NCBI GenBank assembly: GCA_964016885.1
Contig: OZ024742.1
Coordinates: 250,046,001 to 250,110,000 of the forward strand
Length of the DNA: 64,000 bases
From: Eledone cirrhosa
Lineage: Eukaryota
Reading direction: 5' to 3'
Both the position numbers and the translations under genes were made by a program. This document shows positions 59,043 through 59,093 of this stretch, piece after piece (positions within the stretch are counted from its first letter, which is position 1; every line of letters starts with the position of its first letter). The notes below the pieces were generated by a model that made no database searches, was not told where the DNA came from, and saw only the letters and a program-made list of their open reading frames with translations.

Positions 59043-59093
59043 AGTTTCAGAAGATCCCGTTAAGGGTGAAAGCAGCGATTCTTTGCTTAAACT
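59043..59093 (+). ncRNA. pLTR hammerhead fold with A at core position 4
   Basis: AGTTT-CAGAAGA-TCCC gttaa GGGT-GAA-AGCA..TGCT-T-AAACT. All three stems close. Confidence 0.7.

What the first reader, a model, noticed from the sequence alone, without database searches (positions are those of the whole stretch)
59043..59093. pLTR hammerhead with A4 (CAGAAGA), a U-U opening of stem II and a CUU site, fixed in a recently active Penelope
Seen: the identical non-canonical core in both pLTRs and in the distant copy at 12825. An unrelated family at 58331 also has CAGAAGA and the 8.9 kb family has CAG. The U-U at the base of stem II recurs in the 27.6/58.7 kb family. Differences between the two pLTRs fall in loops. 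Inference: a tolerated, possibly undescribed hammerhead variant or a non-catalytic packaging signal.
Basis: partly seen in the sequence, partly recalled or inferred. Interest (0 to 1): 0.75.

Follow-up and report, generated by a model that had tools for sequence, protein, structure and literature searches.

The report
Fixed A4 hammerhead at retrotransposon cap
A very abundant Penelope-type jumping gene carries a hammerhead self-cutting RNA fold with A in place of the usual U at core position 4 in over 12,000 identical copies and in its older subfamilies; the fold likely sits at the capped front of the element's RNA and is probably a slowed variant, but cutting has not been tested.

Summary
Both pLTRs carry a type I hammerhead with core CAGAAGA, a U·U opening of stem II and a CUU site. 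A4 is the family state: 12,328 exact 49-mers, 94 of 100 listed longer-loop (mostly older-subfamily) copies, and one copy with an open 712-aa frame. Apparent U4 copies are mostly inversion junctions. Only A4 is unusual. U10.1·U11.1 is published, and both it and U17 occur in canonical U4 families here. The 58331 'A4' is a private mutation (28 of 29 relatives have U). The 8.9-kb family does fix A4, together with U6. Across subfamilies stems and core stay fixed while loops change; covariation is weak. Copies pile up at A59043 behind an extra G, a likely cap footprint, about 8-fold more often than at the predicted cut site; a U4 family also lacks cut-site starts. So the fold likely opens the capped RNA, and uncut RNA is what gets copied. 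Best reading: a slowed, still-selected ribozyme; a non-catalytic module is the main rival. I found no U4A natural variant in held papers, but key papers were unavailable. This scan noted the same family elsewhere in this genome, and cap run-off in other genomes.

The parts
59043..59093 (+). Type I hammerhead fold, 5' pLTR copy. Stem I 59043-47/59089-93; core C3-A4-G5-A6-A7-G8-A9 59048-54; U10.1 59055; stem II 59056-58/59064-66; U11.1 59067; GAAA 59068-71; stem III 59071-75/59083-87; U17 59088; predicted cut between 59088 and 59089
   Evidence: sequence; descriptor scan; pair counts
59049..59049 (+). A4, the non-canonical core base
   Evidence: no variant row at this place in three runs
59041..59047 (+). 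Initiator-like TTAGTTT (TCAGTTT in older subfamilies); A59043 is the inferred capped transcription start and the first base of stem I
   Evidence: 5' junction pile-up; extra G; the initiator consensus is recalled
59028..59102 (+). Outer extension of stem I (59028-33 with 59096-102), possible only in transcripts that start upstream; one C-G/U-A compensatory pair between subfamilies
58861..59206 (+). 5' pLTR
58794..58860 (-). Inverted 5'-truncated partner copy, joined at the hammerhead core and ending in a (TA)n tract
59248..61376 (+). Hydra-type RT plus C-terminal GIY-YIG ORF (RWQ, DKT, CxCX5C); broken in this copy by one frameshift and two stops
61456..62194 (+). Intron upstream of the fold (GT donors at 61456 and 61488, AG acceptor ending at 62194); spliced genomic copies exist
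62109..62455 (+). 3' pLTR; copies end mostly at 62366 (49 of 93) or at or beyond 62455-56 (31 of 93; 62456 is the end of my reference), read as inferred reverse-transcription start sites
62292..62342 (+). Second hammerhead copy with the same A4 core
12825..12889 (+). 5'-truncated stub of the same family starting at C3, joined to an inverted tail piece
8905..8940 (+). Unrelated minimal-hammerhead-like family with a fixed CAGTTGA (A4 plus U6) core; inverted twin near 8700
58331..58385 (+). Unrelated canonical (U4) hammerhead family; the A in this copy is a private mutation

Best explanation
This is a hammerhead-type RNA fold of a Hydra-type Penelope-like retrotransposon with A instead of U at core position 4 throughout its lineage; it likely sits at the capped front of the element's RNA and is probably a slowed, protein-assisted self-cleaver that selection likely still keeps folded. 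Shown: the motif, A4 fixation, conserved stems with variable loops, 5' ends of copies at A59043 behind an extra G, and few 5' ends at the cut site. Inferred: transcription starts at A59043. The element's protein would then prime reverse transcription inside this mostly uncut RNA (near 59117 or 59206) and run off the cap, giving the many 75-165-nt stubs and head-to-head joints. Cutting after U59088 would remove the 46-nt capped leader and silence that RNA, so a weak ribozyme would cost the element little. Untested: any cleavage.
For: A4 fixation: 12,328 exact 49-mers. Non-A4 32-mers number 608; 83 of the first 100 are T, but 24 of 26 inspected T copies are inversion junctions, so true U4 is about as rare as C4 or G4 decay. 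Of the first 100 of 318 longer-loop matches, 94 have A4; 57 of 62 old-type copies have it. One of 5 fetched long loci has an uninterrupted 712-aa frame behind an exact A4 motif. Selection on the fold: across five subfamily majorities, 0 of 20 structured positions left free by the search pattern changed, against 3 of 7 loop III positions (Fisher p=0.012) and 7 of 13 loop positions overall (p=0.0004); 86% of cells pair in 22 aligned copies, against 24-52% when slid. All catalytic bases other than U4 are canonical. One diverged relative, L452, has U4 and a U-A pair in stem II, which suggests A4 is derived. Tolerance at position 4: a natural U4C viroid variant is weak in vitro yet sufficient in vivo (Perreault 2011), and a C4 family exists here, 8 of 8 hits. 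Slowing: in a pairwise scan, all CUGA-turn mutants except the C-G swap had low activity (Roberts 2023). Cap: 36 of 93 copies end 5' at -11..+16 of C3 and none at -12..-39; 48 of 79 junctions directly before A59043 have G (hand tally), 17 of 28 on loci, p=1e-4. Uncut template: about 170 joints at the cut site against about 1,370 at A59043 (hand tallies scaled to totals), and 0 of 19 copies in random regions start at the cut. The anole element's hammerhead cuts only with its protein and is dispensable for insertion (Frangieh 2024).
Against: No cleavage data exist. True covariation is weak: 5 pairs change on both sides (120 of 500 shuffles as high), covariation score reached by 69 of 500 shuffles, and the clearest compensatory pair is in the outer stem that the capped RNA would lack. 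The old-subfamily search fixed most core bases, so their conservation there is partly built in. ViennaRNA gives the three-helix fold only 0.1-0.9% of the ensemble. The canonical U4 family F also has 0 of 10 copies starting at its cut site, so the genomic ends say nothing specific about A4. The 8.9-kb family reached at least 2,264 copies with A4 plus U6, a core expected to be near dead, so amplification does not need catalysis. The 52 nt are also the core-promoter region, so DNA-level constraint may contribute. The U4 ancestor rests on one or two decayed copies.
Confidence: 0.48

Rival explanations
1. The fold no longer cuts. It is kept as a non-catalytic 5' module that the element's protein binds, or that positions the internal start of reverse transcription.
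For: Copies derive from uncut RNA. The common 3' end lies about 28 nt past the cut site. A second family amplified with A4 plus U6. Hammerhead mutants do not impair insertion of the anole element in vitro. Naiads prosper without canonical hammerheads. CUGA-turn mutants are low-activity.
Against: C3-G8, G5, A6, A9, GAAA and U16.1-U17 all remain, including in old copies found without the core pattern (L032, L144, L204). Position 4 has a natural variant that still works in vivo. Uncut templates are equally the rule in a U4 family.
Confidence: 0.3
2. A4 is fully compensated, for example by U10.1·U11.1, A7, tertiary contacts or protein, and the ribozyme cuts at normal speed in some transcript form, such as the read-through 3' pLTR with the long stem I.
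For: It has a monomer-competent 5-pair stem III and an extendable stem I with one compensatory pair. Perreault argue that tertiary contacts offset core variants.
Against: No double mutant rescued the CUGA turn in the published scan except the C-G swap. U-U, A7 and U17 co-occur with U4 in other families, so they are not A4-specific. The fold has low predicted occupancy.
Confidence: 0.1
3. The 52 nt are conserved as DNA (initiator and downstream promoter) or by short ancestry. A4 drifted to fixation in a dead relic and RNA structure is irrelevant.
For: The fold begins at the inferred start site. Stems I-III show conservation with almost no covariation inside the A4 lineage.
Against: Change tracks the RNA loops, not distance from the start. 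Compensatory pairs exist in the outer stem and in L452.
Confidence: 0.09
4. C3-A4-G5 is fixed because it is the AG of a 3' splice site, so splicing would rebuild or destroy the core.
For: A branch-like TTGAC and a T-rich tract precede CAG. The D. virilis intron ends at helix I.
Against: The demonstrable acceptor is about 100 nt upstream, at 62194. None of the first 100 of 693 copies with a non-C base before AGAAGA shows either donor exon joined there. Older subfamilies lack TTGAC.
Confidence: 0.03

Closest known systems
Hydra-clade EN+ Penelope-like elements (Craig et al. 2021, PMC8557442; section 11 and passages read, supplement searched only for six strings)
   Same: RWK-like motif (RWQ), DKT, CxCX5C linker, C-terminal GIY-YIG, insertion in (TA)n, pLTRs with inverted partner, hammerhead in the pLTR
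   Different: Reported Hydra hammerheads are 'canonical', and the core strings quoted in the methods require cuganga, which would miss this one. The element is about 3.6 kb with pLTRs, against generally under 3 kb.
[quoted passage not shown]
   Same: Type I fold in both pLTRs; also thousands of solo copies
   Different: 5-pair non-palindromic stem III instead of a minimal dimer type; U·U rather than G10.1-C11.1. The only core variant named in their text is U3-A8.
Natural hammerhead core variants (Perreault et al. 2011, PMC3088659; section 3 parts 2-3 of 7 and passages; figures not seen)
   Same: U10.1-U11.1 reported. U4C viroid variant cited as weak in vitro but sufficient in vivo.
   Different: U4A is not named in the passages read. 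Here the variant is fixed in a lineage of tens of thousands of copies.
Anolis Poseidon PAc (Frangieh et al. 2024, PMC11167929; parts 1-2 of 4 read)
   Same: Two internal reverse-transcription starts downstream of the hammerhead, AT-rich targets, uncut RNA as template, no reads ending at the cut site
   Different: No core deviation is reported in the parts read, and it overlaps the start codon; protein-assisted cleavage shown. No capped start at stem I is described in the parts read.
D. virilis Penelope promoter (Schostak et al. 2008, PMC2377424; passages)
   Same: TATA-less initiator promoter in the pLTR; intron in the leader
   Different: Its start lies 46 bp before the intron, whose end meets helix I. 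Here the main inferred start is the first base of stem I and the intron belongs to a longer upstream transcript.

Membership tests
Hammerhead ribozyme, type I | Three-way junction with stems I, II, III, ends in stem I | tested here: met
   (86% of cells paired; 24-52% when slid)
Hammerhead ribozyme, type I | C3-G8, G5, A6, A9, G12-A13-A14, A15.1-U16.1, H17 | tested here: met
Hammerhead ribozyme, type I | U4 of the CUGA turn | tested here: not met
   A4 fixed; hence filed as a variant fold, not a consensus member
Hammerhead ribozyme, type I | Paired R10.1-Y11.1 at the base of stem II | tested here: not met
   U·U; a published natural variant, common in U4 families here
Hammerhead ribozyme, type I | Covariation of the stems | tested here: inconclusive
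   5 pairs with double change, 120 of 500 shuffles as high; 12 cells, 9 of 500
Hammerhead ribozyme, type I | Rfam hammerhead model match | tested here: inconclusive
   none among 150 listed of 217 matches; 67 not shown; canonical copies in the window were not listed either
Hammerhead ribozyme, type I | Site-specific self-cleavage 3' of H17 | not testable with these tools
   no assay; genomic 5' ends do not discriminate
Hydra-clade PLE | RWK-type motif, DKT, CxCX5C linker, C-terminal GIY-YIG | tested here: met
   RWQ, DKT, C-N-C-X5-C and AYIG read,
Hydra-clade PLE | (TA)n insertion, pLTRs, inverted 5' partner | tested here: met
Hydra-clade PLE | Phylogenetic placement with Hydra reverse transcriptases; absence of CCHH | not tested
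   no tree built
Penelope/Poseidon clade proper | DKG motif | tested here: not met
   DKT in this ORF
Non-LTR retrozyme | Non-coding tandem monomers, each with a hammerhead | tested here: not met
   copies are truncated or inverted pLTR stubs of a coding element; definition

The most novel reading that the evidence does not exclude
Position 4 is a tuning knob. These retrotransposons put a hammerhead at the very cap of their RNA as a self-decapping timer, and independent lineages in one genome weakened it (A4, C4, A4 plus U6) because slower self-decapping raises copy number; U4A would be a new functional natural core.
Probability: 0.15. Interest if true: 0.75.

Novelty: new variant of a known kind. 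Interest (0 to 1): 0.5.

Why it matters
What hammerheads do in Penelope-like elements is an open question in the papers read. This family is a natural experiment: a core change that lab scans score as damaging is fixed in a lineage with tens of thousands of recent copies and at least one intact frame, alongside a C4 family, an A4+U6 family and many U4 controls in the same genome. With the fold at the inferred cap, cutting would decap the RNA, which gives a concrete, testable role. In practice, descriptors that demand CUGANGA miss such families and could undercount hammerheads in these elements. If the RNA does not cut, it is a clear case of a ribozyme fold kept for another job.

Tried and rejected
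Splice-acceptor idea for CAG: not supported. A U4 sister subfamily: the T4 excess is a junction artefact. The 58331 family as a second A4 lineage: rejected. Using copy 5' ends as an in-vivo cleavage assay: uninformative, because the U4 family F behaves the same. A second start at A4: no obvious G excess among joints before A4 in the first 100 listed (by eye). Sequencing runs: no RNA holder listed; all five runs are contigs of unrecorded kind. Run X4 shows a steep rise in depth from 59038 and more A>G/T>C rows than X3, but its kind is unknown and contigs cannot show starts, so it is not used. Organism B (X5) has two low-depth contigs across the core with no change listed at A4; too thin to count. 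Repeat finder and Rfam output were swamped by microsatellites. One search had a de-duplication bug and is replaced. One search had a mis-registered stem and is replaced. One search timed out. No Pfam scan was obtained. Literature: 'hammerhead'+'U4A' gave 0 papers, 'hammerhead'+'CAGANGA' 0, 'adenosine at position 4' 0 occurrences in the 15 listed, 'U4C' only Perreault; the cap search listed one review (listing only). Lunse 2017, Ambros and Flores 1998 and Nelson and Uhlenbeck 2008 were not held; Ruffner 1990 was not looked up. Figures of Cervera and Perreault are not held, their supplements were not opened, and Craig's file S2 could not be judged from text hits. A U4A case may be in any of these. 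The host was not identified, so 'mollusc' is untested.

Full report
Observation. The window reads AGTTT CAGAAGA T CCC GTTAA GGG T GAAA GCAG…TTGC TT AAACT at 59043-59093 and, with two loop changes, at 62292-62342. A relaxed descriptor with any base at position 4 returned 5 hits in 64 kb, two of them these. In hammerhead numbering (recalled) this is C3-A4-G5-A6-A7-G8-A9, U10.1·U11.1, G12-A13-A14, A15.1-U16.1 and U17, with a predicted cut between 59088 and 59089. The 12825 copy starts at C3 and has no stem I 5' strand.

The element. The folds lie in pLTRs 58861-59206 and 62109-62455, which differ at 14 of 346 aligned bases plus one indel. They flank an ORF with RWQ, DKT, CxCX5C and a C-terminal YIG, broken here by one frameshift and two stops. 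An inverted truncated partner and (TA)n tracts flank it. I built no tree. One of 5 long loci fetched has an uninterrupted 712-aa frame behind an exact A4 motif, so the family, not this copy, looks recently active.

A4 is the family state. The 49-mer occurs 12,328 times and the downstream 36-mer 22,588 times; reversed controls gave 0. A 32-mer with a non-A base at position 4 occurs 608 times, with T in 83 of the first 100. But 24 of 26 T copies inspected are head-to-head joints centred on A4, which leaves roughly 40 true U4 copies, on a par with C4 and G4 decay (my scaling). A pattern demanding a longer loop II, to reach older subfamilies, gave 318 matches with A4 in 94 of the first 100. I read 70 loci from it (30 returned, 40 hand-picked as old-looking); 57 of 62 old-type copies had A4. 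Of three T4 among them, one is a joint, one is a decayed copy, and L452 is a diverged relative with U4 and a U-A pair in stem II, which is weak evidence that A4 is derived.

What is not special. Perreault 2011 report stem II opening with U10.1-U11.1. Several U4 families in this genome have it, two of them with U17 as well. In 600 kb of evenly spaced regions, 96 descriptor hits were 75 U4/A6 and 12 A4/A6 (9 this family, 3 chance-like), plus 9 others. The 58331 family has T in 28 of 29 relatives. The 8.9-kb family does fix A4, but with U6, in 91 of the first 100 of 2,264 matches. A C4 family also exists. So position 4 departs from U in three unrelated families here.

Selection on the fold. Majority sequences of five subfamilies differ at 0 of 20 structured positions that the search left free, against 3 of 7 in loop III (p=0.012) and 7 of 13 loop positions (p=0.0004; loop II length was selected for). 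On 22 aligned copies 86% of cells pair, but covariation is not clearly above shuffles (120 of 500 for pairs, 9 of 500 for cells, 69 of 500 for score). The one clear compensatory pair, C-G 7 against U-A 6, closes the outer stem. The three-helix fold holds 0.1-0.9% of the predicted ensemble, and the two pLTR copies fold no better than shuffles.

Where the RNA starts. I could read 93 of the first 100 anchor copies; the 7 unread are intact through stem I. Of the 93, 36 have their 5' joint within -11..+16 of C3 and none within -12..-39; 3' ends fall at 62366 (49) or 62455-56 (31, partly the end of my reference). Of 1,738 copies with a non-T base before A59043, 79 of the first 100 are joints and 48 of these have G (hand tally). 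On 28 loci the split is 17 G, 6 A, 5 C (p=1e-4 against genome composition); several Gs are clearly not templated by the partner, and 4 of the 6 As are. An extra G opposite a cap is a known habit of reverse transcriptases (recalled). The context is initiator-like (recalled consensus), TCAGTTT in older subfamilies, which show the same G. At the predicted cut site 27 of the first 100 of 623 are joints, with G in 7 (hand tally): about 170 against about 1,370. In 800 kb of evenly spaced regions 0 of 19 informative copies begin at the cut, and 0 of 10 do so for the canonical family F. So uncut, likely capped RNA is the template in both, in line with the anole element, and this cannot score A4 activity. 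I derived this before seeing that the scan had noted cap run-off in other genomes; those notes are not independent support.

Splicing. I tested whether the core CAG is a splice acceptor. Contigs and genomic copies show introns from donors 61456 and 61488 to an acceptor at 62194, and neither exon appears joined at the core in the first 100 of 693 candidates. A longer spliced transcript therefore exists, and it could form the outer stem.

Mechanism. Shown: motif, fixation, loop-biased change, joint and G pattern. Inferred: start at A59043; internal priming near 59117 or 59206 with run-off at the cap, giving stubs and head-to-head joints; cleavage would remove a 46-nt capped leader ahead of the first AUG at 59248. 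From literature: CUGA-turn mutants are low-activity (Roberts 2023, passages); a natural U4C variant is weak in vitro yet sufficient in vivo; the anole fold needs its protein to cut and is dispensable for insertion. I put 0.48 on a slowed but catalytic fold, 0.30 on a non-catalytic module, 0.10 on full activity, 0.09 on a DNA-level relic and 0.03 on splicing.

Novelty. Hammerheads in Penelope-like pLTRs, U·U and U4C are known. I found no natural U4A in held papers, but Lunse 2017, Ambros 1998 and Nelson 2008 were not held, Ruffner 1990 was not looked up, and figures and most supplements were not seen. Other papers touched: bioRxiv 10.64898/2026.07.22.740005 (part 1 of 5), PMC6765202, PMC11014351 and PMC7151607 (passages only); none of the text seen names U4A. 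Verdict: a new variant of a known kind, interest 0.5; it becomes more interesting only if cleavage or a decapping role is shown.

Noticed in passing
window 8905-8940 and its inverted twin near 8700; loci L294-L323: A minimal-hammerhead-like family with CAGTTGA (A4 and U6) in 91 of the first 100 of 2,264 matches; one diverged copy reads CAGATGA (L183). Stem II and the palindromic stem III are kept. A link to a coding element is not established (one reverse-transcriptase-like hit in 30 loci).
   Followed up: partly
L055, L237, L298, L346, L396, L406, L438: A diverged hammerhead family with C4 (CCGAWGA) in 8 of 8 hits, with long, variable stem II; the viroid-type U4C variant in an animal repeat.
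   Followed up: partly
L091-L119: Hundreds of head-to-head joints centred on A4, where the core's own short palindrome creates a perfect-looking CTGAAGA hammerhead on one strand; a trap for descriptor searches.
   Followed up: yes
window 61456/61488-62194; L121, L141, L201-L203: Spliced, intron-less retrocopies made from two alternative donors, although these elements are said to retain introns.
   Followed up: partly
family F: L219, L231, L372, L467: A canonical U4, U·U hammerhead family whose stubs also start at the first base of stem I, three with an extra G (L231, L372, L467).
   Followed up: partly
L412: A tandem array of about 310-bp units, each with a canonical type I hammerhead (11 units in one 10-kb stretch): retrozyme-like.
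   Followed up: no
L262, L358, L382, L394, L401: U3-A8 core families (TTGAAAA, TTGATAA) are present in this genome.
   Followed up: no
window 13570-16045 and 24613-26400: Two further broken Penelope-like ORFs, about 38% identical to this one in the reverse-transcriptase region.
   Followed up: no
window 12556, 27577, 58640-58740, 62590, 62945: Further hammerhead-bearing stubs of other families, some decayed.
   Followed up: partly
window 53600-54980: A 21/42-bp minisatellite with long open frames.
   Followed up: no
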